DNA of 11,273 nt, taken from the UHGV virus genome UHGV-1977856, one strand, 5' to 3'. The DNA comes from a virus. Shown here piece after piece: positions 1 to 11,267 of this stretch. Both the position numbers and the translations under genes were made by a program. How positions within the stretch are numbered: the stretch's first letter is position 1; the number at the start of each line of letters is the position of its first letter. The notes beneath the pieces were generated by a model that saw only the letters and a program-made list of their open reading frames with translations, made no database searches and was not told the DNA's origin.

Positions 1-77
1 CAGACACCACTGACCGCGTCATTAATCACGCAATTCCGGCGAGAATGCGGCTATCTGCAAAGTTAAAACTGCATAAA

Positions 78-117
78 AAAATAGAGTCTGTCGACATCCG
101 CCAGACTCTACAGTACA
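78..117 (-). terminator. Rho-independent terminator-like hairpin oriented for the - strand
   Basis: Perfect inverted repeat tagagtctg...cagactcta with an A-run at 78-84 on + (a T-run 3' of the hairpin on the - strand). No T-run follows on the + strand. Lies in the presumed host flank left of the element. Confidence 0.4.
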
Positions 118-386
118 CACAGCAGTGCATCCGCGTCTTAAGTCCGGCATTGTCTCCTCTGCGCCGGTGACTGTGTTATAACGGTTTTAACCTTTAGTTG
201 CCAATTTTCTTCAGTGACAGATTTCACGAAAATATAAGTTACATTATTAATATCGTGATTTTATAAATTAGTGTTTTTTGCTGTTTCATAATGTGCCACG
301 TTGTTCATTATGTTTTTGATTTTTAAGCTCATTGCAATTTTTCTTGTTCCAACTTGTTCCACGTTGTACCCCCTTGTGCAATGATC

Positions 387-2270: not shown

Positions 2271-3461
2271 ATGAATACTGGATATTCTCCCGAACAAGGG
2301 CGGGGCTTCGTTCGTCCTGAAAAACAGAATCTGCAAAATTTTGCCGAAATTATTCCGGTTATTTCCGGCCTTACTGGCGGGAGTGAAACCAATATTGTTA
2401 ACGCCAGAGCGTTGCAGATGTTTGATGATAAAAAGGGAGTAAATTTAACTTACACCCCTGACGGCAATCAGAATATGAGCATTATCTCTGAGTCAGGTTT
2501 CTACAAACTAATAAAAACAAAAAGCGCCCCGTTGCCGGAGCGCCTTTGTGAACAATTAACCTACTGCGCAAAAAATGAATCTGAGCAGTGGGATTATATC
2601 AACCGTGTGGCGAAGCGCCACAATTGCCGGATAACAGGCAAAACAAAGGCCACCCGCTACGGTGGCCCCTCGACACAAGCTACACGTTATCCCCAACGCA
2701 TGAGCATCACCAACAATGCCACATTTGCGGCTGGTGGGCAATGTGATCAGTCAGATTTGGTTCGTTCCAAGGTTTGCAACGAGAGCTTTTTCCTGTGCTC
2801 TTTAAGGAATTTCTCAAGAGCAAAAGCACATGGCGCGAATCTTTCTGATTCATGCTCTATCTTTCTGCGCCGTCTTTTCCGTGCCGGTGATAATGTTTTG
2901 GTCAATTCTTTATCGGTCATTGTGTTGTCCTGCATAGCAATGCGCCGTAATACCTTACACCACGGCGCTGATGGTGATTACTCTGGTTCTTTGGTCTTGC
3001 GACGCTGGAGTTCTTCGCGTGCAACGGTGACAAGCTGCCCGATTTCTTCCGCTGCTTTGATGCCGATTTGTTCGACCTTAGCCAGGGCATCCAGTGACGA
3101 CACAAGGGGATTTTCTCCGCTGCCTTCTGCTTGGCGGCGGGCTATTTCTCCGCGCATGGCGGTTACGATAAATCCGGCATTGCTTTCGCCGTCCAGCTTA
3201 ACGGATTCCATCCCTTGCATAACATCTAGTGGGACTCTGACAGTTGTCAGTTGTGATTTTGCGTTTTTGTTAGCCGTTGCCATTTCTGAAACTCCTAATC
3301 ATCGGTGTGTTTCAGTATACACAAAAAAAGAAATACAAAAAGCCTTGACGTGTGTTTCATGCGCTCATAACATGAAACACACCAAAAGAATTGTTGAAAT
3401 ACAAAGAGCAACGCCCCGCAGTGCCGGAAACACATACGGGGCGTCTAACCACCAACGATAG
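2271..3461 (+). CDS. Uncertain ORF: only the N-terminal ~130 codons look protein-like (weak BRO-N/KilA-N-like ESGFYKLI motif); possible pseudogene or read-through artefact
   Basis: Residues after about 2700 are Ser/Cys/Arg-rich low-complexity and lie exactly antisense to two better-supported - strand genes (2747-2920, 2978-3283). No in-frame stop until 3461. Confidence 0.25.
   Translation: MNTGYSPEQGRGFVRPEKQNLQNFAEIIPVISGLTGGSETNIVNARALQMFDDKKGVNLTYTPDGNQNMSIISESGFYKLIKTKSAPLPERLCEQLTYCAKNESEQWDYINRVAKRHNCRITGKTKATRYGGPSTQATRYPQRMSITNNATFAAGGQCDQSDLVRSKVCNESFFLCSLRNFSRAKAHGANLSDSCSIFLRRLFRAGDNVLVNSLSVIVLSCIAMRRNTLHHGADGDYSGSLVLRRWSSSRATVTSCPISSAALMPICSTLARASSDDTRGFSPLPSAWRRAISPRMAVTINPALLSPSSLTDSIPCITSSGTLTVVSCDFAFLLAVAISETPNHRCVSVYTKKEIQKALTCVSCAHNMKHTKRIVEIQRATPRSAGNTYGASNHQR
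2747..2920 (-). CDS. Small basic hypothetical protein (57 aa, MTDKELTKTLSPARKRRRRKIEHE...)
   Basis: Start taken at the internal ATG 2920, which has an SD (AGGA, 7-nt spacing); the ORF-track start 2935 lacks one. Lies downstream of, and co-oriented with, the RHH gene. Confidence 0.45.
   Translation of the reverse strand: MTDKELTKTLSPARKRRRRKIEHESERFAPCAFALEKFLKEHRKKLSLQTLERTKSD
2978..3283 (-). CDS. Ribbon-helix-helix (CopG/Arc-like) DNA-binding protein; candidate repressor of the element
   Basis: 101 aa with a good SD (ttaGGAGtttcagaaATG). N-terminus fits the RHH fold pattern: beta-strand TTVRVP, helix LDVMQGMESVKL, turn DGESNAG, helix FIVTAMRGEIARRQ. Sits divergent to the rightward operon, next to an inverted-repeat operator. 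Confidence 0.6.
   Translation of the reverse strand: MATANKNAKSQLTTVRVPLDVMQGMESVKLDGESNAGFIVTAMRGEIARRQAEGSGENPLVSSLDALAKVEQIGIKAAEEIGQLVTVAREELQRRKTKEPE
3304..3385. promoter_or_regulatory. Divergent promoter/operator region: rightward sigma70-like promoter overlapped by an 11-bp inverted repeat, plus a third half-site near the RHH gene start
   Basis: TTGACG (3345-3350), 17-bp spacer, TAACAT (3368-3373). Inverted repeat tgtgtttcatg (3351-3361) / catgaaacaca (3371-3381). A further tgtgtttca copy lies at 3307-3315. A leftward -10-like TATACT is the reverse complement of 3316-3321. Confidence 0.55.
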
Positions 3462-3480
3462 CAAGATTATCGAGGCTGCT

Positions 3481-3687
3481 ATGAGAAATCATACCATACA
3501 CCCGCAAGGGCGGGACTCGCACAACCTGAATAAATACATCTGGCGTTTTATCGCCCTGAGTACGGTACAACCGCGCGTGATTACCATTGAGGCCACCAGC
3601 GAACAGGAAGCCCGTCAGCAATCACCGGCTGGCTGCGTGATGGTATTCGCCGCCCGTATTCGTCAGGGGGTGCACCATGTGCAATAA
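3481..3687 (+). CDS. Small hypothetical protein (68 aa); tentatively recalls Icd-like small proteins of P4-type elements
   Basis: ATG 3481 has an SD (cGAGGctgctATG); the ORF-track start 3391 is a TTG without SD. Product MRNHTIHPQGRDSHNLNKYIWRFIALS...ITIEATSEQEARQQ... The family resemblance is from memory only. Its stop overlaps the next gene's start. Confidence 0.5.
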   Translation: MRNHTIHPQGRDSHNLNKYIWRFIALSTVQPRVITIEATSEQEARQQSPAGCVMVFAARIRQGVHHVQ

Positions 3688-3916
3688 CACCCGTCCGGAC
3701 GCAGCCGCCGAAGCAATCAAAACACTGATTGATGCGCTGATTGATATTTCATGCACGGCAGCAACCGCAGAAAAACACATTACCAGAGAGACGGAATATA
3801 CAGGGGCAATAATCCCCCATTCGCTGGCATACGCACAGATTACCGCTGATATGGCACTGAATGAGGCTAAAGCCATCCTGATTGCTGATTGTGAAAATGG
3901 GGGGGGTTATGCGTGA
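3677..3916 (+). CDS. Hypothetical small protein (79 aa)
   Basis: ATG overlaps the upstream stop (cATGTGCAATAA), indicating translational coupling in the operon. No recognisable domain. Confidence 0.5.
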   Translation: MCNNTRPDAAAEAIKTLIDALIDISCTAATAEKHITRETEYTGAIIPHSLAYAQITADMALNEAKAILIADCENGGGYA

Positions 3917-4339: not shown

Positions 4340-4639
4340 ATGAAAAAGAAAATTTCTGGCTTTACTGCCAGCGGCCCCGCTCGGCCTGAAATCCGCCCCG
4401 GCGATATTTTCCGGGATAACTACGGCGGCACGGTAACGATTAAAAGCGTGGCGGGACGGTGCGTTACTTACCGCCGTGATGGGTACGGTTATGACTGCGT
4501 GATGCCTGTTTATCAGTTCCGGCGTGATTTTTCGCTGGTACAGGCCACACCACGCAGACAGCCCACCAGCAACGCAAAGGCACGGGCAAATATTCAGAAA
4601 ATGAAAAACATGATTAACGCATTCAGGGGCACAAAATGA
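4340..4639 (+). CDS. Hypothetical small protein (99 aa)
   Basis: SD acAGGAAaataaaaccATG; its stop overlaps the rep start (ATGA). Confidence 0.5.
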   Translation: MKKKISGFTASGPARPEIRPGDIFRDNYGGTVTIKSVAGRCVTYRRDGYGYDCVMPVYQFRRDFSLVQATPRRQPTSNAKARANIQKMKNMINAFRGTK

Positions 4640-6051
4640 AATTGGCACCGAACTTAAAAAAACAGCCACACGACAAAATGACCGAAGTCATTATTTTTGC
4701 GGGTAGTGATGCCTGGGCGCACGCGAAACAATGGCAGGAACAGGACGGGCGACTTGCTGGCGACAACGTGCCACCTGTATGGCTTGGAGACAGCCAGCTT
4801 GACGAACTGGCAGACCTGAAAATCATCGATGATGGTCGCTATTGTGTCCGGCTGTACAAGGCAGGCCACATCAAGCCGTCAAATATTAATGCCATCGGGC
4901 AAAAGCTGGCGGCGGCAGGTGTACGGGATGCGAATTATTACCCTGAGGGAATGCACAGCCAGAAGCTGGAGAACTGGCACGACTACCTGCAACGGATCCG
5001 CGAACAGACAGAGCGCGGGGAAATACTTACTGACGAGCAATACAGCCAGCGAAAAACCACGCTACCAATGAGCATTGGATCTGCAGGGTACGACACACAG
5101 CTTGATTATGTCGTTAAGGGCGTGATTCCGGCTAATTCATTGTGCAGCACATACGGCGCGAGCGGTTCCTATAAATCGTTCCTCGCGTGTTCCTGGGCGT
5201 GTCATGTTGCCACGGGTCGCCACTGGGGAGGCCGCAGGGTGGCGCATGGTTCGGTGATGTATGTCGTCGGTGAAGGGGGGATAGGTGTCCCCCGTCGTAT
5301 CAAGGCATGGGAAATCGTTAATGATGAACGGGTGGAAAATCTGTACCTGGTAAACCGCCCGATTTTTCCGGCAGTCCCGCTTGATGTCGATGAAATGGTC
5401 ATCGCTTCCCGCCAGGTTGAACGGGAAACGGGTAAACCGGTACGCATGATTATTCTGGATACGCTGGCGCGTTGCTTTGGCGGTAATGATGAAAATGACG
5501 CGCGGGATATGGGGGCGTTTATCCGTGGATGTGACGAACTGAAACGACGCACAGGGGCCACAGTGCTGGTGGTTCACCATTCCGGCAAGGATGAAACAAA
5601 GGGGGCGCGTGGTTCCAGTGCATTTCGTGCATCTCTGGACGCTGAATACCGTATTCGCCGTGAAGGTGCAGACAGTGAAGCCCTGGTTATCTCCTGCACC
5701 AAAATGAAGGACGCGGAGGAACTGAAAGAGGCTGCATACGATTTACGTGTGGTGGAGCTTTTTACCGACACTGACGGGGAGTTAATCACGTCGCTGGTGG
5801 TTGTGGATAAACCGCGCCCACCCGTTGAACTGGAGCGCATCGAGGAAGCCGGGAACAAGACGGAGAATCATGCCGCGCTATGGGGCTGTATCCGTTCACG
5901 CACACAGCGCGGCGATAAATGCACAATTCCGTTGTTGCGTGATGATATGAAAAAGCTGGGGTATGAGATGAAACACTTCCGGCGCTGGCTGTACAAGCTG
6001 GAAGGTGATGGCGTTATTGCTATTGACGGTGATGACGTGTGCCCACTGTAA
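4636..6051 (+). CDS. Replication initiator / helicase with RecA-like (AAA_25, RepA-like) ATPase domain; N-terminal ~160 aa of unknown function
   Basis: 471 aa. P-loop-like GASGSYKS, Walker B-like MIILDTLARCFGG, and a VVHHSGKD motif typical of RepA-like helicases. Followed directly by an iteron array. No primase motifs recognised by eye. Confidence 0.8.
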   Translation: MKLAPNLKKQPHDKMTEVIIFAGSDAWAHAKQWQEQDGRLAGDNVPPVWLGDSQLDELADLKIIDDGRYCVRLYKAGHIKPSNINAIGQKLAAAGVRDANYYPEGMHSQKLENWHDYLQRIREQTERGEILTDEQYSQRKTTLPMSIGSAGYDTQLDYVVKGVIPANSLCSTYGASGSYKSFLACSWACHVATGRHWGGRRVAHGSVMYVVGEGGIGVPRRIKAWEIVNDERVENLYLVNRPIFPAVPLDVDEMVIASRQVERETGKPVRMIILDTLARCFGGNDENDARDMGAFIRGCDELKRRTGATVLVVHHSGKDETKGARGSSAFRASLDAEYRIRREGADSEALVISCTKMKDAEELKEAAYDLRVVELFTDTDGELITSLVVVDKPRPPVELERIEEAGNKTENHAALWGCIRSRTQRGDKCTIPLLRDDMKKLGYEMKHFRRWLYKLEGDGVIAIDGDDVCPL

Positions 6052-6245
6052 AAAGTGGGTAGTAAAAGTGGGGAGTGTGGGGAATTTAACAAAATTGAAA
6101 CGCGATTCCCCACTTTCCCACCTGTATATACCCCAAAAAGTGGGGAATAAAAATACATTGAAAAACATCACGTTAGAATCACAAAAAAAGAAGTGGGGAG
6201 ATGTTGGGTAATTTCAAAAAGTGGGTAGTAAAAGTGGGGAGCAGT
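6052..6245. repeat. Iteron-type replication origin
   Basis: AAGTGGG(G/T)A(G/A) recurs at 6053, 6066, 6077, 6138, 6191, 6219 and 6232, plus one inverted copy (ttccccactt, 6106-6115). A 24-bp block aaaagtgggtagtaaaagtggggag is duplicated at 6051-6075 and 6217-6241, bracketing an AT-rich core (6150-6190). Confidence 0.7.
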
Positions 6246-6250
6246 GAGGA

Positions 6251-6502
6251 ATGACCAGAAAAACCAGAGATAAGACAGCGCCAAAATATCTCGCATTAGA
6301 CATGACAGAGCACGCCTTAAAGGTGGCAATCAGAACGATAGACCGCCACGCTGGGGAAGGATACGCGAAAGCACATCCCGAACTGATAAGCGCATTCATG
6401 ACCACGACGGCGGCAAACTTTGCCACGCTGACAGAACGGGAGATTGCCGAAGCGGAACAGGTGACAACCATCAACGTTAAAACCGGAGAGCAGACAGCAT
6501 GA
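6251..6502 (+). CDS. Hypothetical protein (83 aa)
   Basis: Its stop overlaps the ssb start (ATGA); protein-like composition; no recognisable domain. Confidence 0.5.
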   Translation: MTRKTRDKTAPKYLALDMTEHALKVAIRTIDRHAGEGYAKAHPELISAFMTTTAANFATLTEREIAEAEQVTTINVKTGEQTA

Positions 6503-6921
6503 CAGCACAGATAGCGGCTTACGGGCGGCTGGTGGCTGACCCGCAGTTAAAGACCACCAGCAAAGGGACACAAATGGCGATGGCGAGTATGGCTGTTCCC
6601 CTTCCGTGTAGCCAGGCAGATGACGGAACGGCGACGATGTGGTTATCCGTCCTGGCGTTTGGCAGGCAGGCCGACGCACTGGCAAAGCACCACAAAGGCG
6701 AACTGGTGAGCGTGGCGGGTAACATGCAGGTAAGCCAGTGGACAGGCCAGAACGGCGAAACGCGGCAGGGCTGGCAGGTTATCGCAGACAGCGTAATCAG
6801 TGCCAGAACGGCGCGACCGGGCGGCAAAAAAGGCCAGCAGGGCCAGGCTACTGACGCACTGAACAGGGCAAAACAACAGGCGGGAAATGATGATCCGTAC
6901 GGGGATAACATACCGTTTTAA
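6499..6921 (+). CDS. ssb: Single-stranded DNA-binding protein (SSB family)
   Basis: 140 aa. OB-fold SSB pattern (YGRLVADPQLKTTSKG...MWLSVLAFGRQADALAKHHKGELVSVAGNMQVSQW...QGWQVIADSV), a Gly/Gln-rich linker, and an acidic C-terminal tail ending DDPYGDNIPF (compare the canonical DDDIPF). Confidence 0.8.
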   Translation: MTAQIAAYGRLVADPQLKTTSKGTQMAMASMAVPLPCSQADDGTATMWLSVLAFGRQADALAKHHKGELVSVAGNMQVSQWTGQNGETRQGWQVIADSVISARTARPGGKKGQQGQATDALNRAKQQAGNDDPYGDNIPF

Positions 6922-6935
6922 GCAACGAGTGACAG

Positions 6936-6960
6936 AAGCCGGAACAATCCGGCTTTTTTA
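6936..6960 (+). terminator. Rho-independent terminator after ssb
   Basis: Hairpin agccgg-aacaat-ccggct followed by tttttta, 15 nt after the ssb stop. Confidence 0.7.
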
Positions 6961-7034
6961 CGGGTCCTCCCGATGGAGTGGCCTTGCCACGGGGCGGGAG
7001 CGGCGCGGAAAAAGGCTGGTTTTTGCATTTTCAT
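6954..7034. repeat. Copy A of a duplicated ~80-bp GC-rich element containing a cosN-like motif
   Basis: Near-identical to 9489-9570; differs only in an internal segment (atggagtggcc versus gtgtggtgtcc). Contains ACGGGGCGGGAGCGGCGCGG at 6989-7008. Confidence 0.75.
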
Positions 7035-7345
7035 GGCGGCGGCAGCATGTGTGATAATTTATTGATAATTAAAAATTATTTCTGTTTTTACCTGTACAAT
7101 ATTTTTTTCTCCATGTCATTAGACCAGTTTGCAATTAATTGAAATATATAAATAAATTTGTTTTTCACCTGCCAGATGGAGTTGCCTGTGCAAAATGTGT
7201 TCAGATGGCGGGATATTTATGCCGGATTCTCTCCGGCTTTTTTGTGTCTGAATCTGATCAATCTATTTTTATGATAGAAATATGTTTATCTACCACTTTT
7301 ATCGATCAATAATGCGCGCAGTTTAGTCAGTAAGAGGAAGTTACT

Positions 7346-7555
7346 GTGAATTGTATTAACGACCTGAACACAGGCGAGGTAAAAGGTGGTTCCGTTCATC
7401 TGGATGCGCAGACCGTTATGCGCCTTAAGCAGTACAGGATCGACCACATAAATCATCATCCTGACCAACCATTACCAGGTGTGGCGCAGATTGTCAGACA
7501 CGCAGTTAACGCGTGGCTTGATAAGAATGGTTTTGCATCTGGGGGTGAGCAATGA
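7346..7555 (+). CDS. Hypothetical small protein (69 aa), first gene of the capsid operon
   Basis: GTG start with a strong SD (aagaggaag, about 6-nt spacing); its stop overlaps the protease::MCP start (ATGA). Confidence 0.55.
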   Translation: MNCINDLNTGEVKGGSVHLDAQTVMRLKQYRIDHINHHPDQPLPGVAQIVRHAVNAWLDKNGFASGGEQ

Positions 7556-9465
7556 ATCACTGGTACACCATTAAGGCGGCGGGTGTTCGCGGAGCGGCAG
7601 AAATATCCATCTATGAAGAAATTGGCGGCTTCGGTATCACCGCGAAGCAGTTTGCGGAAGACCTGAAAGCCCTGGGCGATGTCTCACATATCGACCTGCG
7701 GATCCATTCGCCAGGTGGTGACGTGTTTGAAGGCATCGCCATCTATAACCTGTTACGGAATCATCCGGCAGAAATTACGGTTTATATCGATGGTGTTGCG
7801 GCTTCAATGGCTTCGGTTGTCGCAATGGCTGGCGATCGTGTTGTGATGCCGGAAAACGCCATGATGATGATACATAAGCCGTGGGGTATCTCTGGCGGAA
7901 ATGCTGGTGATATGCGTGATTATGCTGATTTGCTGGATAAGGTGGAAACCGTGTTAGTCCCTGCTTATGCCAGAAAAACGGGCAAATCAGCACAGGAAAT
8001 TACCGCCATGCTGGAAGATGAAACCTGGATGGACGGGAAAGAATGCCTTAAGCACGGTTTTGCTGATGAATTGTTGCCATCTGTCACAGCAATGGCGCGA
8101 ATTGAATCGAAACGCACAGGAGATTTTTCACACATGCCGGAAACCATTAAAGGAATGATTACCCCGCCACAGGGAGCAGCCAATATTGCTGGTAATGAAC
8201 AGAAGCGCATCAACGGAATAAGTGAAGTGTTTAGCCTGTTCGGCAGTCGTTACGACGGGATCAAAATGGCGTGCCTGGAAGATGCATCATGTACACCGGA
8301 GATGGCCCGTGAAAAGTTGTTGAACGAGATGGGGCGCGAGTCCACGCCATCCAATAAAAATACCCCGGCTCATATTTATGCCGGTAACGGGAACATAACA
8401 GGCGATGCAATTCGTCAGGGGCTTTATTCCCGTCTCGGGTATGAACGCCCAGAGCGGGGAAATCCTTACGCGATGATGAGCCTTTTTGAAATGGCCCAGG
8501 CATCACTAACGGATCGTGGTATCAGTGTTGGCGGTTTTTTAAATCGCTCGCAGGTCGTTAATGCAGCTTTCACACACAGCAGCAGCGATTTTTCTCACAT
8601 TCTGGCTGGTGGTGCTGAAAAATCAGTACTGAAAGGCTGGCAGGACAGCGGCGAAACGTTCCAGAAATGGACGCGTACCGGATCGCTTTCAAACTTTCAT
8701 GAAGCAAAGCGCGTTGGTCTGAATGGTTTTTCAAAGCTGGATAAAGTACCGGAAGGTGCGGAATATAAATACATCACCACCAGCGATAAAGGTGTACCTA
8801 TTGCGCTGGCCACATACGGTAATATTTTTTCTGTTACCCGTCAGGCCATTATCAACGATGACCTGACCCAGTTAACTACAATCCCCATGGCGATGGGGCG
8901 TGCGGCCGCCAGAACAGTAGGTAATCTGGTTTATCTTCTGTTAACCAGCAACGGCAAATTTACGGATAGTAAAGCGTTATTCCATGCCGATCATAAAAAT
9001 CTTATTGCGAAGGATATGGACATGGAGGGGCTTAACGAAGCCCGTAAGCTGATGCGACTACAGGAGGATGCCAACGGCGACTCCCTGAATATTACCCCCG
9101 CATTTGTCCTGGTCCCCGCCGCGCTGGAGTCTGCCGCACATCGCGCCATTCTGTCATCGTCATCACTCTTTCCGGTTGATGGTGATGGCACTATCAATCA
9201 GAACCCCGGCATCATTAACGTGGTGAAAGATATGGCTGAGGTTATTGTTGAGCCACGTCTTGATAAGAACAATAACAAGGAGTGGTATGTAGCCGCAGCG
9301 AAAGGGATGGACACGATAGAGGTCGCTTATCTTGATGGTATTGATACGCCATATCTTGAGGAGCAGGTGGGCTTTACTGTTGATGGTGTCGCCTGGAAGG
9401 TGCGCATAGATGCAGGTGTCGCGGCCCTCGATTATCGTGGACTACTGAAATCGAACGGAGCATGA
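7552..9465 (+). CDS. Fusion protein: ClpP-like (S14) prohead protease N-terminal domain + HK97-fold / Mu gpT-like major capsid protein C-terminal domain
   Basis: 637 aa. N-terminus carries ClpP motifs (HSPGGDVFEGIAIYNLL...IDGVAASMASVVAMAGDRVVMPENAMMMIHKPWG). C-terminal ~330 aa fit the major-head-subunit pattern (KYITTSDKGVPIALATYGNIFSVTRQAIINDDL...IPMAMGRAAART...ITPAFVLVPAALESAA). Confidence 0.85.
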   Translation: MNHWYTIKAAGVRGAAEISIYEEIGGFGITAKQFAEDLKALGDVSHIDLRIHSPGGDVFEGIAIYNLLRNHPAEITVYIDGVAASMASVVAMAGDRVVMPENAMMMIHKPWGISGGNAGDMRDYADLLDKVETVLVPAYARKTGKSAQEITAMLEDETWMDGKECLKHGFADELLPSVTAMARIESKRTGDFSHMPETIKGMITPPQGAANIAGNEQKRINGISEVFSLFGSRYDGIKMACLEDASCTPEMAREKLLNEMGRESTPSNKNTPAHIYAGNGNITGDAIRQGLYSRLGYERPERGNPYAMMSLFEMAQASLTDRGISVGGFLNRSQVVNAAFTHSSSDFSHILAGGAEKSVLKGWQDSGETFQKWTRTGSLSNFHEAKRVGLNGFSKLDKVPEGAEYKYITTSDKGVPIALATYGNIFSVTRQAIINDDLTQLTTIPMAMGRAAARTVGNLVYLLLTSNGKFTDSKALFHADHKNLIAKDMDMEGLNEARKLMRLQEDANGDSLNITPAFVLVPAALESAAHRAILSSSSLFPVDGDGTINQNPGIINVVKDMAEVIVEPRLDKNNNKEWYVAAAKGMDTIEVAYLDGIDTPYLEEQVGFTVDGVAWKVRIDAGVAALDYRGLLKSNGA

Positions 9466-9472
9466 CAACAAG

Positions 9473-9495
9473 GGCGGCGACAGCCGCCTTTTTTT
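9473..9495 (+). terminator. Rho-independent terminator after the capsid gene; stem overlaps a lambda cohesive-end-like GGGCGGCGAC
   Basis: Hairpin ggcggc-gaca-gccgcc followed by ttttttt, 8 nt after the stop. Confidence 0.65.
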
Positions 9496-9570
9496 ACGGG
9501 TCCTCCCGGTGTGGTGTCCTTGCCACGGGGCGGGAGCGGCGCGGAAAAAGGCTGGTTTTTGCATTTTCAT
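9489..9570. repeat. Copy B of the duplicated ~80-bp GC-rich element containing a cosN-like motif
   Basis: Matches 6954-7034. Contains ACGGGGCGGGAGCGGCGCGG at 9525-9544. Confidence 0.75.
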
Positions 9571-9723
9571 TCGTCATTATCATCTTTCTATCATATTGAA
9601 TATTAAGTGTTTTTATTTTTGGTATGTTAATTTCGCTTATTTTGTGTTCAACATGCAGCGCGTTTTTTGACCTTTTTTGAAAGATATTTGCAAGATGCAT
9701 GTTTAAAACATTCTGGAGCGGGT

Positions 9724-10209
9724 ATGGATCGGGAACTGAAAAATCTGATGCTGAACATTAACCAGCTGGCGGCGATAGCGGGAATATGTCGCCAGACTGC
9801 GGCGGCAAGGCTGAAAAATATCCAGCCAGCCGGAGGACATGACAAGCTGAAACTCTATCGGGTGACTGACATTCTGACCTGTTTTCTTGATCTTCCCGTT
9901 CCGGCATCACTGGAAGAAATGGAGCCACACGACCGTAAGGCCTGGTATCAGTCCGAACGTGAGCGCCTCAAGTTCGAACAGGAAACGGCGCAACTCATAC
10001 CCGCCGATGATGTGCGAAAAGAGATGGCTATATGGGGAGAAATCGTAAGCGAGGAACTGGAAAAACTCCCCAGTATTCTGGCACGTGATGCTGGGCTTAA
10101 ACCGATGGCAGTAAACAGAGTGCAGTCAATTATTGACGATTTGTGTAATCAGATTATCAGCCGGATGGTGAAAAATGACGTAGTGAATGAGGTCGCAAAA
10201 CAGGCATGA
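9724..10209 (+). CDS. Small terminase subunit, lambda Nu1-like (N-terminal winged-HTH); candidate packaging-specificity / redirection protein
   Basis: ATG 9724 has an SD (GGAG, 7-nt spacing); the ORF-track start 9667 is a TTG. The 162-aa product parallels lambda gpNu1 in length and pattern: NINQLAAIAGICRQTAAARL / AGGHDKLKLYRVTDIL versus Nu1 NKKQLADIFGASIRTIQNW / GGGKGNEVLYDSAAVI, and C-terminal EIVSEELEKLPSILARD versus IAGEIASILDGLPLSV (Nu1 recalled from memory). Confidence 0.7.
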   Translation: MDRELKNLMLNINQLAAIAGICRQTAAARLKNIQPAGGHDKLKLYRVTDILTCFLDLPVPASLEEMEPHDRKAWYQSERERLKFEQETAQLIPADDVRKEMAIWGEIVSEELEKLPSILARDAGLKPMAVNRVQSIIDDLCNQIISRMVKNDVVNEVAKQA

Positions 10210-10493
10210 TAATGACCGAATCTGAAATACTGCGATTAATCCGCCGTGCTGGTGGAATCAGCCAGCTGGCTGACGAACATGCCAAGCAGCCGGATACAGT
10301 CACCGCTGAAAATTACGCGCGTGTGGTGGCTGAGGTGATGCACCGTGACGGTATTGAGTTTAACGGCGTGGATATGCGCAATATACGCACCAGAGTTCTG
10401 GAGATGTTGTCATACCGTCGCCGCGTGCAGATGTACCAGGAGAAAGAAAAAATTACGTACCGGTGGAAGAAGCCGGAGCGGTTACGACGTTAA
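10206..10493 (+). CDS. Hypothetical protein (95 aa) translationally coupled to the small terminase
   Basis: ATGA overlap with the TerS stop; protein-like composition; no recognisable domain. It occupies the position where lambda has gene A, but is far too small to be a large terminase. Confidence 0.5.
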   Translation: MIMTESEILRLIRRAGGISQLADEHAKQPDTVTAENYARVVAEVMHRDGIEFNGVDMRNIRTRVLEMLSYRRRVQMYQEKEKITYRWKKPERLRR

Positions 10494-10499
10494 CTTGTG

Positions 10500-10539
10500 G
10501 TGACATACCGTGACGGAGAGTGACACACAGTGACAAAAA
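10500..10539 (+). repeat. Four tandem 10-bp repeats with a GTGAC core
   Basis: gtgacatacc gtgacggaga gtgacacaca gtgacaaaaa, exactly 10-bp period, beginning 7 nt after the stop of the last gene. Confidence 0.55.
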
Positions 10540-11025
10540 AGACGGTATTTAAATCGGGTGGTGTTTAATACCCCCAGGGGGATAGAAATCCCTACACCTC
10601 ATTGCTTATGGGACCGCCCGCCTACCCTTGTTCACATCGCCGCAGGTTCGAAAACTTTTTTTGGGAAGGTGTGCACGGGATTGATAGATGAGGTCTATCT
10701 ATAAAAAATCACAAAATCCGCGCCATTGCTGGATCCGCCAAAAATCCCCCACCTTACGGCAGACAAAGAAAACGCGAATTATGGGCCTGTTGCAGAGAAA
10801 AAAGGTCTCACTAGTTTTGCGCACCCTAGCATCGAGGTTCGTCAGCCTCCCATCAGCAACCAGATAACTAATCTCGCTGGTGGGCATGATGCCGATATGG
10901 GGACTTCCATAACGGTTTATCCGTGATCATCCACCAGCTTCATGGCGGATAGCCGGAAAATGATAACGGTATAGCCCGTCGCTTGTGTCTATTTGTTCCG
11001 CATTGTTGCATACAGTGCACCGAAC

Positions 11026-11050
11026 GGTGTAGTTAATGGTGTAGTTAATT
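11026..11050. repeat. Right terminal direct repeat ggtgtagttaatggtgtagttaatt
   Basis: Exact 25-bp match to 387-411. Confidence 0.6.
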
Positions 11051-11267
11051 TGCGATTTTTAACGTTATTTGCAGCGATGTTTGTTGGTTAAATTCAATAA
11101 GTTATGCGCATTTAATTATAAATATCGTGAATGAATAATCATGCATAAGCATTTTGCTTAAAATATCGGCAATATTTGGAACTTATTACTGGAATTTTGG
11201 GTAATACGTTGTTGGACCGACCCGGTCTGGTTATCATATCGCGCTCTTAATTGCGGGAGGATGTAAC

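What the first reader, a model, noticed from the sequence alone, without database searches (positions are those of the whole stretch)
9472..9620. Lambda-like cos site (cosN + cosB) immediately upstream of the Nu1-like small terminase
Three segments resemble the phage lambda cos region as I recall it, in the same order and at a similar distance from the terminase gene: GGGCGGCGAC (9472-9481, the first 10 nt of the lambda cohesive end), ACGGGGCGG-N6-CGCGG (9525-9544, 15/20 against the lambda cos junction ACGGGGCGGCGACCTCGCGG), and ttcgtcat / ttaagtgtttttattt (9570-9618, against lambda TTCGTCATAACTTAATGTTTTTATTT). This predicts packaging by a lambdoid helper large terminase cutting a cosN-like site, with specificity set by the island's own small terminase. 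Which of the two cosN-like motifs is cut is unresolved.
Basis: partly seen in the sequence, partly recalled or inferred. Interest (0 to 1): 0.75.

Follow-up and report, generated by a model that had tools for sequence, protein, structure and literature searches.

The report
Lambda-type cos sites on a phage satellite
The flagged stretch is a genuine lambda-type DNA-packaging (cos) site on a small E. coli phage satellite, placed just upstream of the satellite's own small-terminase gene; a second complete cos site lies 2.5 kb upstream, and the whole arrangement is a variant of what is already known for such satellites.

Summary
The window is a ~10.6 kb phage-inducible chromosomal island (PICI) of the published EcCIDI14 type.

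**What holds up.** Positions 9493-9723 are homologous to lambdoid cos:
- cosQ: TTTACGGGTCCT, 9493-9504
- cosN: ACG|GGGCGGGAGCGG|CGCGG, 9525-9544
- cosB: runs to the terS ATG at 9724

The cosQ-to-nick spacing equals lambda's (35 nt). Two phage records, cdtI and Tritos, end in ...CCACG and start with GGGCGGGAGCG. That places the cut after 9527.

**What does not.**
- The "Nu1-like" gene belongs to Pfam DUF1441, not Phage_Nu1. It is still 68% identical to the small terminase that sits before a gpA-type large terminase in phi458/mEp460 phages.

A second full cos lies at 6957-7199. It shares cosQ and cosN, but its cosB is ~91% identical to cdtI/Tritos phages.

**Comparative evidence.**
- Across 86 loci, cosB class tracks the TerS N-terminal class one to one.
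- Sister islands sit inside the terL gene of such prophages.

**Verdict.** Interpretation supported by comparison only; function is untested. This is a new variant of the known cos-PICI kind, with TerS in place of Rpp. Moderate interest.

The parts
9470..9495 (+). Intrinsic terminator after the protease-capsid gene: stem 9470-9478 / 9483-9491, loop GACA 9479-9482, then a T-run.
   Evidence: Hairpin found. RNAfold gives -16.2 kcal/mol. In relatives the loop varies while the stem is kept, and other islands have a different hairpin at this place.
9490..9570 (+). Copy 2 of the 81-nt direct repeat. It spans the T-run, cosQ, cosN and the first ~26 bp of cosB.
   Evidence: 95% identical to 6954-7034.
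9493..9510 (+). cosQ homologue of cos-2 (TTTACGGGTCCTCCCGGT).
   Evidence: The first 12 nt are identical to lambda TTTACGGGTCCT, and it starts 35 nt before the nick, as in lambda. This block is conserved in all aligned phage and island cos sites.
9525..9544 (+). cosN of cos-2: ACG|GGGCGGGAGCGG|CGCGG. Predicted top-strand nick after 9527 and bottom-strand nick between 9539 and 9540, giving a 12-nt 5' overhang GGGCGGGAGCGG.
   Evidence: 15/20 identical to lambda cosN. Phage records cdtI (NC_009514) and Tritos (OV696610) end in ...CCACG and begin with GGGCGGGAGCGT. The mEp460_4F5 record opens 5 nt upstream of this point. The nick positions themselves are inferred by homology.
9545..9723 (+). cosB of cos-2 (class B2). 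It holds a class-specific segment at the lambda R3-equivalent position (9570-9593), an A/T tract TTAAGTGTTTTTATTTTT (9603-9620) and the palindrome ATGTTTAAAACAT (9699-9711).
   Evidence: 76-79% identical to the region upstream of terS in phi458/mEp460-type phages. Class B2 co-occurs only with TerS N-terminal class N2. No IHF consensus with 1 mismatch or fewer. No repeated R sequences were found, only weak inverted repeats.
9724..10209 (+). Island small-terminase homologue (161 aa, DUF1441).
   Evidence: Pfam DUF1441 at 6e-36 and PHROG 141 'terminase small subunit' at 2e-57. 68% identical to phi458 TerS. Residues 1-94 are identical to the TerS of phage locus L055; the C-terminal half is island-specific.
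6938..6959 (+). Intrinsic terminator after the ssb-like gene (GCCGG-AACAAT-CCGGC, then T6). Its T-run runs into cos-1.
   Evidence: RNAfold gives -17.4 kcal/mol for 6922-6962; sequence.
6957..7008 (+). cosQ and cosN of cos-1 (cosQ 6957-6974, cosN 6989-7008). Predicted nick after 6991, with the same overhang GGGCGGGAGCGG.
   Evidence: The lambda-derived pattern matches with 0 mismatches. This is part of the 81-nt repeat.
7009..7199 (+). cosB of cos-1 (class B1). It has a perfect IHF consensus on the bottom strand at 7055-7067. It ends with the first ~24 nt of a phage terS (7176-7199), after which homology stops.
   Evidence: 90-92% identical to bp 1-208 of phages Tritos and cdtI, and to HannyBb and prophage L008, up to their terS start. 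IHF scan.
7221..7246 (+). Terminator-like hairpin directly after the truncated cos-1 / terS remnant.
7552..9465 (+). ClpP-like prohead protease / major capsid protein fusion gene. It lies between the two cos sites.
   Evidence: Pfam CLP_protease plus Phage_capsid_4. Annotated as a fusion protein in RefSeq.

Best explanation
**Element.** The window carries a ~10.6 kb Gram-negative PICI, a phage satellite.

**cos-2.** Positions 9493-9723 are its main packaging site, a lambda-type cos. In the model:
1. After a lambdoid helper induces the island and it replicates, the helper's gpA-family large terminase nicks cosN after 9527 on the top strand and between 9539 and 9540 on the bottom strand.
2. This leaves 12-nt 5' cohesive ends, GGGCGGGAGCGG.
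3. DNA is packaged rightwards, terS first. Packaging ends at a later cosQ-cosN once a phage-sized head is nearly full. About four island units would fit.

**Site choice.** cosB and the N-terminal winged-helix domain of the island's own DUF1441 small terminase appear to set which site is used. The two form one exchangeable module.

**cos-1.** The second site (6957-7199) has the same cosQ and cosN. Its cosB is that of cdtI/Tritos-class phages. It probably lets that class of helper package the island with the helper's own TerS.

**Shown versus inferred.**
- Shown: sequence homology, record ends of related phages, fixed geometry, module co-variation, and the prophage context of sister islands.
- Inferred: the actual cutting, the direction of packaging, the TerS-cosB contact, the TerS-TerL contact, and any use of cos-1.
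For: 1. cosQ and cosN match lambda at identical spacing.
2. Phage records cdtI and Tritos end in ...CCACG and start with GGGCGGGAGCGT. This is the position homologous to lambda ACG|GGGCGG.
3. In 86 terS loci the site lies 185-197 nt before the terS ATG. In lambda the distance is 190 nt.
4. The phages that share this cos have TerL with GpA_ATPase and GpA_nuclease domains.
5. The island TerS is 68% identical to phi458 TerS. Residues 1-94 are identical to the TerS of phage locus L055, whose cosB is also island-type.
6. Four TerS N-terminal classes pair one to one with four cosB classes. The C-terminal class is uncoupled from both.
7. cos-2 is present in every island variant. cos-1 is present in only some.
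8. Islands whose TerS is 97-99% identical are inserted after codon 325 of terL in phi458-like prophages. This matches the helper-embedded PICIs described in PMC10111431.
9. Precedent: EcCICFT073 has two functional lambda-type cos sites, one directly upstream of its specificity gene rppA (PMC6092414, PMC6739421).
Against: - There are no experimental data for this island or its subfamily. [quoted passage not shown]
- cosB-TerS co-variation could reflect physical linkage alone, because cosB abuts the 5' end of terS.
- No repeated R sequences were found in cosB-2, and it lacks an IHF consensus.
- The island TerS has a diverged C-terminal half and lacks the acidic tail of the phage proteins. Binding to helper TerL is therefore not assured.
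- I could not confirm that the cdtI and Tritos record ends were determined experimentally. The papers are not held.
Confidence: 0.72

Rival explanations
1. Only cos-2 matters. On this reading cos-1 is a passive scar of the recombination that brought in the capsid module from a cdtI-like phage, and it plays no role in transfer.
For: - cos-1 is absent from many sister islands, both those with and those without the capsid gene.
- It ends in a truncated phage terS start followed by a terminator. That looks like a deletion product.
- It is no better conserved among islands than its neighbours: 84-100% for cos-1, against 90-100% for the capsid gene.
- In EcCICFT073 one of the two cos sites is dispensable (PMC6092414).
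Against: - cosQ, cosN, the IHF consensus and the whole cosB are intact and ~91% identical to live phages.
- An intact cosQ-cosN would be cut at termination by any compatible terminase, so it cannot be fully inert.
- It is retained in most of the capsid-bearing islands sampled.
Confidence: 0.35
2. The island's DUF1441 protein does not work as a stand-alone small terminase. Instead, like Rpp, it would form mixed oligomers with the helper's TerS. That would divert the helper terminase to the island cosB and block phage packaging.
For: - The central segment RKAWYQSERERLKFEQETAQLIPA is identical in the island and all phage classes. The C-terminal half is island-specific and lacks the phages' acidic tail.
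- The gene occupies the same slot as rppA in EcCICFT073, between the capsid module and a shared last gene that is 75% identical.
- Island C-terminal class C2 was never seen next to a terL.
Against: - It is full length (161 aa against 163-164 aa) and 55-68% identical to the phage TerS throughout.
- It shows no sequence similarity to RppA or RppC.
- Nothing tested here speaks to oligomer formation.
Confidence: 0.25
3. The repeated 81-nt element is not a packaging site. It would be a transcription element or an inert relic, for example part of the terminators it abuts or a late-operon RNA signal.
For: - Both copies begin in the T-run of a terminator.
- No function has been shown.
Against: - The element is homologous to lambda cosQ and cosN.
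- Related phage records break exactly inside it.
- It keeps a fixed distance to terS in 86 loci.
- There is no Rfam match. The only hit nearby is a human lncRNA model at 26 bits, below its 50-bit threshold.
Confidence: 0.05
4. The first motif (GGGCGGCGAC, 9472-9481) is the cosN that is cut.
For: It is an exact match to the first 10 nt of the lambda cohesive end. The expected count is 0.01 per window.
Against: - It forms the stem and loop of a terminator hairpin.
- Its last bases vary in relatives (GAC, GAT, TAT, GAA).
- Sister islands have a different hairpin at this place.
- It has no cosQ upstream and no CGCGG flank.
Confidence: 0.02

Closest known systems
EcCICFT073 cos1/cos2 with RppA (Fillol-Salom et al. 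2018, PMC6092414; 2019, PMC6739421; Murialdo & Feiss 2022, PMC9026076)
   Same: - An E. coli PICI of the same backbone: int, alpA-like gene, DUF4222 gene, replication gene, ssb, capsid module, packaging cassette, and a shared last gene that is 75% identical.
- Lambda-type cosQ and cosN, with one cos directly upstream of the packaging-specificity gene.
- Two cos sites per island.
   Different: - EcCICFT073 has the exact lambda overhang GGGCGGCGACCT. Its two sites are inverted and flank rppA. Its cosB matches no phage, and specificity comes from Rpp bound to the helper's TerS.
- This island has the overhang GGGCGGGAGCGG and two direct copies 2536 bp apart that flank the capsid gene.
- Both of its cosB types are shared with real phages.
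- It has a full-length TerS homologue in place of Rpp.
cos of lambdoid phages with DUF1441 TerS and gpA-type TerL (mEp460, phi458, cdtI, Tritos, Ayreon, HannyBb; Gifsy-like head genes)
   Same: - Same cosQ, the same or nearly the same cosN, and the same distance to terS.
- cosB-2 is ~78% identical to phi458/mEp460. cosB-1 is ~91% identical to cdtI/Tritos.
   Different: - The island has no terL, portal or tail genes.
- Its TerS C-terminal half is island-specific.
- It carries two cosB classes on one small replicon.
Phage lambda cos (cosQ-cosN-cosB, Nu1/gpA)
   Same: - cosQ core, the left half of cosN, the CGCGG flank, and the A/T tract at bp 82-91.
- 35-nt spacing from cosQ to the nick, and ~190 nt from the nick to terS.
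   Different: - 5 of the 12 overhang bases differ.
- No lambda R sequences are present.
- The TerS belongs to Pfam DUF1441, not Phage_Nu1.
SaPI-type satellites with their own TerS (pac), and SaPIbov5 with the helper's cos
   Same: - A satellite-encoded TerS homologue paired with the helper TerL (as in pac SaPIs).
- A copy of a helper-type cos on the satellite (as in SaPIbov5). Both are described in PMC6092414.
   Different: - Here both strategies occur on one Gram-negative island, in a cos system rather than a headful one.

Membership tests
Lambda-type cos site (gpA-terminase phages) | cosN: a partly symmetric site that yields 12-nt 5' cohesive ends, with conserved flanking bases | tested here: met
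   ACG|GGGCGGGAGCGG|CGCGG is 15/20 identical to lambda. The same sequence lies at the ends of the phage records cdtI and Tritos. Cutting itself was not tested.
Lambda-type cos site (gpA-terminase phages) | cosQ about 30-35 bp upstream of the top-strand nick | tested here: met
   TTTACGGGTCCT starts 35 nt before the predicted nick in lambda and in both window copies.
Lambda-type cos site (gpA-terminase phages) | [quoted passage not shown] | tested here: inconclusive
   - A class-specific segment sits at the R3-equivalent position and co-varies with the TerS N-terminus.
- No repeated R sequences were found.
- The IHF consensus is perfect in cos-1 (7055-7067) but absent from cos-2.
Lambda-type cos site (gpA-terminase phages) | Cohesive ends at this site in packaged DNA | not testable with these tools
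   Needs particle DNA.
Phage_Nu1 small terminase (PF07471) | Match to the Nu1 family profile | tested here: not met
   - Pfam gives only DUF1441 (6e-36), while lambda Nu1 hits Phage_Nu1 at 2.5e-100.
- There is no PDB sequence hit to Nu1.
- hhalign aligns only residues 9-53 with Nu1 residues 2-48, at probability 14%.
Phage_Nu1 small terminase (PF07471) | N-terminal winged helix-turn-helix DNA-binding domain | tested here: inconclusive
   - The AF2 model (pLDDT 79.6) shows strand, two helices, a beta-hairpin and a helix in residues 9-55.
- Foldseek finds nothing at E < 0.1. The top hits are MerR-type domains and 6hn7_B from the RppC-lambda TerS complex entry, at probability 0.9.
Small terminase of DUF1441/gpA-type lambdoid phages | Homologue of the gene directly upstream of gpA-type terL | tested here: met
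   68% identical to phi458 TerS, which abuts a TerL with GpA_ATPase and GpA_nuclease domains. PHROG 141 'terminase small subunit' at 2e-57.
Gram-negative PICI | ~10 kb island with int, alpA, a replication gene with ori repeats, few late genes, and specific att sites | tested here: met
   - Integrase, AlpA, DUF4222, AAA_25 replication protein and SSB.
- Iteron-like repeats at 6050-6241, and att repeats at 343-411 / 10982-11050.
- The att core is identical to that of EcCIDI14 in Table S1 of PMC6092414.
Rpp-type cos PICI | Encodes an Rpp protein | tested here: not met
   No similarity to the RppC chains in PDB or to RppA.
Capsid-forming PICI (cf-PICI) | Own terL, portal and head-tail connector genes | tested here: not met
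   The only late genes are a protease-capsid fusion, a 69-aa ORF, terS and a 95-aa ORF.
Helper-embedded PICI (PMC10111431) | Integrated inside a late gene of the helper prophage | tested here: not met
   The window copy lies next to the McaS sRNA gene, with no prophage genes in the flanks. Sister islands are inside terL.

The most novel reading that the evidence does not exclude
The island may be a dual-specificity packaging parasite with two routes into phage heads.
- cos-1 would mimic the cos of one helper class (cdtI/Tritos) and need no island protein.
- cos-2 would work with an island TerS that keeps a phage-type DNA-binding domain but has an island-specific C-terminal half. That half would have evolved either to co-opt any gpA-type TerL or to poison the helper's TerS, an Rpp-like hijacker derived from TerS itself.

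The cosB + TerS N-terminal unit would then be an exchangeable specificity cassette, traded between phages and satellites.
Probability: 0.3. Interest if true: 0.6.

Novelty: new variant of a known kind. Interest (0 to 1): 0.4.

Why it matters
Packaging of Gram-negative PICIs has been worked out only for the Rpp type (EcCICFT073). TerS-encoding E. coli PICIs were catalogued, but no helper or packaging site was reported for them in the papers I could read.

This locus supplies testable predictions:
- the exact cut site and cohesive end;
- candidate helpers (phi458/mEp460 class and cdtI/Tritos class);
- a modular cosB + TerS N-terminus unit.

These would allow a direct test of how satellites match or escape helper packaging specificity. 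Some candidate helpers carry toxin or effector genes, so mobilisation of these islands bears on gene flow in pathogenic E. coli.

It does not change the general picture. It fills in a subfamily.

Tried and rejected
- **Direct alignment to lambda alone.** z = 4.6 and 2.5, too weak by itself, so I bridged through intermediate phages.
- **Literature search for the overhang GGGCGGGAGCGG.** It returned only unrelated G-quadruplex and cloning papers.
- **Key papers not held.** Asakura 2007 (cdtI phage) and Vahanian 2017 (natural history of cosN) are not in the library, and no paper mentions phage Tritos. I therefore could not confirm that those record ends were measured.
- **Rfam.** Nothing relevant. 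A 26-bit hit to a human lncRNA model across 9342-9646 is below threshold and taken as chance.
- **PDB sequence search and Foldseek with the TerS.** No significant match.
- **Genome-contig scan.** Only 5 loci. The IMG/VR scan was the useful one.
- **First fixed-spacing pattern.** I mis-specified it by one base and it found nothing. Corrected.
- **Search for R-type repeats in cosB.** No convincing family.
- **CFT073 region 1395-1440 kb.** This was the wrong locus, a lambdoid prophage. EcCICFT073 is at 1377.7-1389.2 kb.
- **The 69-aa ORF.** No similarity to the phage gpW-position gene or to the equivalent EcCICFT073 ORF.

Full report
**Context**

The window holds an integrase-bearing island of about 10.6 kb. 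Its genes, in order:
- tyrosine integrase (412-1662)
- AlpA-family regulator (1862-2218)
- DUF4222 protein
- AAA_25 replication protein (4636-6051), followed by iteron-like repeats
- SSB (6499-6921)
- a 69-aa ORF
- ClpP-protease / major-capsid fusion (7552-9465)
- a DUF1441 protein (9724-10209)
- a 95-aa ORF

It is flanked by direct repeats at 343-411 and 10982-11050. Their last 26 nt, CGGTGTAGTTAATGGTGTAGTTAATT, equal the att core listed for PICI EcCIDI14 (Table S1 of PMC6092414). The gene order parallels the model PICI EcCICFT073, and the last gene is 75% identical. A 100% identical copy is in E. coli PI7. In total 175 of 5426 complete E. coli genomes carry at least 80% of the 6900-10600 segment.

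**The observation**

The first, GGGCGGCGAC (9472-9481), is an exact 10-mer of the lambda cohesive end; 0.01 are expected per window. It nonetheless forms the stem and loop of a hairpin, AAGGGCGGC-GACA-GCCGCCTTT, followed by a T-run. This is the terminator of the capsid gene, at -16.2 kcal/mol. In sister islands the loop reads GATA, TATA or GAAA while the stem is kept. Islands without the capsid gene have a different hairpin at the same place. It has neither a cosQ upstream nor the CGCGG flank. I reject it as cosN.

The second and third strings belong to a true cos homologue. Lambda's right end reads ...TTTACGGGTCCTTTCCGGTGATCCGACAGGTTACG, and its left end starts GGGCGGCGACCTCGCGG. The window reads TTTACGGGTCCTCCCGGTGTGGTGTCCTTGCCACG GGGCGGGAGCGGCGCGG.

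- The 12-nt cosQ core is identical.
- The cosQ-to-nick distance is 35 nt in both.
- The 9 nt around the top-strand nick and the 5 nt after the overhang are identical.
- GTTTTTATTT lies at bp 82-91 in both.

A pattern made of the 27 shared bases at lambda's spacing matches the window twice with no mismatch. None was expected in 200 shuffles, although I chose the pattern after seeing both sequences. Pairwise alignment with lambda alone is only modest (z = 4.6). The link is made through intermediates:
- 9491-9730 is 76-79% identical to the region upstream of terS in phi458, vB_EcoS-569R4, PhiR47_1 and mEp460, with E down to 2e-47.
- A multiple alignment of island, phage, lambda, a 21-like CFT073 prophage and both EcCICFT073 cos sites shows two near-invariant blocks. 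These are GGGTCCT..CC.G and ACGGGGCGG...C..CGCG.

**Where it is cut**

Two phage records, cdtI (NC_009514/AB285204) and Tritos (OV696610, deposited as linear), end in ...GCCTGCCACG. They start with GGGCGGGAGCGTCGCGGAAAAAGG. This is exactly the position homologous to lambda ACG|GGGCGG. A third record (mEp460_4F5) is opened 5 nt upstream and has a 3-nt discrepancy inside the overhang, as expected near a physical end.

By homology the window's top-strand nick falls after 9527 and the bottom-strand nick between 9539 and 9540. The overhang is GGGCGGGAGCGG, 7/12 identical to lambda. I could not read the cdtI paper or find one for Tritos, so whether those ends were measured is unverified.

**The small terminase**

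The gene at 9724 is Pfam DUF1441, not Phage_Nu1. It is also PHROG 141, "terminase small subunit". It is 68% identical to the phi458/mEp460 protein that directly precedes a 700-aa TerL with GpA_ATPase and GpA_nuclease domains.

Resemblance to Nu1 is confined to the N-terminal winged helix:
- hhalign pairs residues 9-53 with Nu1 residues 2-48, at probability 14%.
- An AF2 model (pLDDT 79.6) has the expected topology of strand, two helices, a beta-hairpin wing and a helix.
- Foldseek gives only non-significant MerR-type hits, plus a chain of the RppC-lambda TerS complex entry.

It is not an Rpp.

Positions 9490-9570 are one copy of an 81-nt direct repeat. The other copy is 6954-7034, 95% identical. 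The upstream copy also starts in a terminator T-run, the one after ssb.

Beyond the repeat the two copies diverge:
- 6992-7199 is 90-92% identical to bp 1-208 of Tritos and cdtI, and to HannyBb and an EPEC-type prophage. This covers their whole cosB up to and including the first codons of their terS.
- Homology then stops, and a terminator-like hairpin follows at 7221-7246.
- This cos-1 has a perfect IHF consensus on the bottom strand at 7055-7067, bp 64-76 from the nick. The position and strand match cdtI and phi458 and are comparable to lambda I1 at bp 79-91.
- cos-2 has no match with 1 mismatch or fewer.

**Comparative survey**

I examined 86 loci with DUF1441 terS, drawn from 80 IMG/VR contigs plus genome and phage loci.

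- A cosQ-cosN always lies at a fixed distance upstream of the terS ATG: 196-197 nt in island-type loci and 183-187 nt in the phi458- and L066-type phage loci.
- TerS N-terminal sequences fall into four classes and cosB sequences into four classes. The two pair one to one:

| TerS N-terminal class | cosB class | Found in |
|---|---|---|
| N0 | B0 | phi458/mEp460 |
| N1 | B1 | cdtI/Tritos |
| N2 | B2 | islands plus three phages |
| N3 | B3 | a large prophage group |

- The C-terminal class is uncoupled from these. The phage-type C-terminus occurs with N0, N2 and N3. An island-specific C-terminus occurs only with N2 and never next to a terL.
- Phage locus L055 makes the modularity explicit. Its TerS is identical to the window's over residues 1-94 and identical to phi458's from residue 95 on. 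Its cosB is island-type, and a 700-aa TerL follows.

The class-specific DNA lies at bp ~43-68, the position of lambda R3 (PMC9026076). This fits a cosB-plus-DNA-binding-domain specificity module. The caveat is that the two are physically adjacent, so linkage alone would also keep them together.

**Variation among islands, and helpers**

Sister islands come in three forms: ssb-cos-terS, capsid plus one cos, and capsid plus two cos (L009). cos-2 is universal and cos-1 is accessory.

At least nine islands whose TerS is 97-99% identical are followed by the 3' part of terL (codons 326 onward) of a phi458-like prophage. This is the helper-embedded PICI configuration described in PMC10111431. It ties the island family physically to prophages that use the same cosQ and cosN and a gpA-type terminase.

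**Mechanism proposed**

- The helper's gpA-type TerL nicks cosN of cos-2.
- The island TerS, through its N-terminal domain, selects cosB-2.
- Packaging runs rightwards, as in lambda, and ends at a later cosQ-cosN when the head is nearly full.
- Four units make 42.6 kb, within the range of 42-47 kb helpers. This is arithmetic plus the known length dependence of lambda cos cleavage, so it is an inference.
- cos-1 would let class-N1 helpers package the island with their own TerS.
- Because both sites give the same cohesive end, any pair of cuts yields a molecule that can circularise.

The open point is how the island TerS, with its diverged C-terminal half and no acidic tail, engages TerL. An Rpp-like mixed oligomer with the helper TerS is a live alternative. 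The central segment RKAWYQSERERLKFEQETAQLIPA is invariant across the N0, N2 and N3 classes and the islands.

**Comparison with the known, and novelty**

Lambda-type cos sites on E. coli PICIs, and even two per island, are established for EcCICFT073. There cos1 works with RppA bound to the helper TerS (PMC6092414, PMC6739421, PMC9026076). In that island:
- the overhang is exactly lambda's;
- the two sites are inverted and flank rppA;
- cosB matches no phage.

TerS-encoding E. coli PICIs were noted, but they were not mobilised and their packaging sites were not described in what I could read. The present case differs in several ways:
- a TerS homologue instead of Rpp;
- the cosN variant of the DUF1441/gpA phage group;
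- both cosB types shared with real phages;
- direct rather than inverted duplication.

I therefore rate it a new variant of a known kind, of moderate interest.

Noticed in passing
window 73-168 (- strand): Full-length McaS/IsrA sRNA gene (117.6 bits, E 5e-22), just left of the island. It marks the chromosomal insertion locus.
   Followed up: no
window 243-266 / 11115-11138 and 343-411 / 10982-11050: Two nested pairs of direct repeats. The inner pair ends in the EcCIDI14 att core. The outer pair matches the att core listed for EcCIEC2733.1 (ACATTATTAATATCGTGA, lysR-smrA site). This suggests two PICI att sites, or a former tandem or nested occupancy, at this locus.
   Followed up: partly
window 6050-6241: Iteron-like repeats (AAAAAGTGGGTAGTAAAAGTGGGGAG twice exactly, plus degenerate copies and an inverted repeat) just downstream of the replication gene. 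This is the likely island origin of replication.
   Followed up: no
window 7552-9465: The island carries a ClpP-protease / major-capsid fusion gene of the type found in its putative helpers (~64-69% DNA identity to the phage genes in L015-L017), but no portal or terL. Whether it redirects capsid size is unknown. The equivalent capsid gene of EcCICFT073 was dispensable for transfer (PMC6092414).
   Followed up: partly
L022-L024, L039, L040, L045, L047, L052, L054 (IMG/VR loci): Islands with TerS 97-99% identical are followed by the 3' part of terL (codons 326 onward) of phi458-like prophages, so they are embedded in the helper's terL. In L022 the island's left part appears to be deleted: phage terS and terL codons 1-65 abut the island's ssb.
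   Followed up: partly
L055-L057 (IMG/VR loci): Three phage loci have a mosaic TerS: an island-type N-terminal half and cosB joined to a phage-type C-terminal half. This is evidence of recombination inside terS between satellites and phages.
   Followed up: partly
window 10206-10493: A 95-aa ORF that overlaps the terS stop codon. It is 75% identical to the last gene of EcCICFT073 (PHROG 1561, unknown function), a conserved PICI gene next to the packaging cassette.
   Followed up: partly
L036, L037, L041, L047, L050 (about 2960-3776): Some sister islands have ~0.8 kb of extra sequence, including a ~213-aa ORF seen in L047, between the capsid gene and cos-2. It was not identified.
   Followed up: no
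window 2271-3461 and 2747-3283: The long + strand ORF (396 aa) has no family hit and low-complexity composition, and it overlaps several - strand ORFs. The true genes of the regulatory region between alpA and the replication module were not resolved.
   Followed up: no
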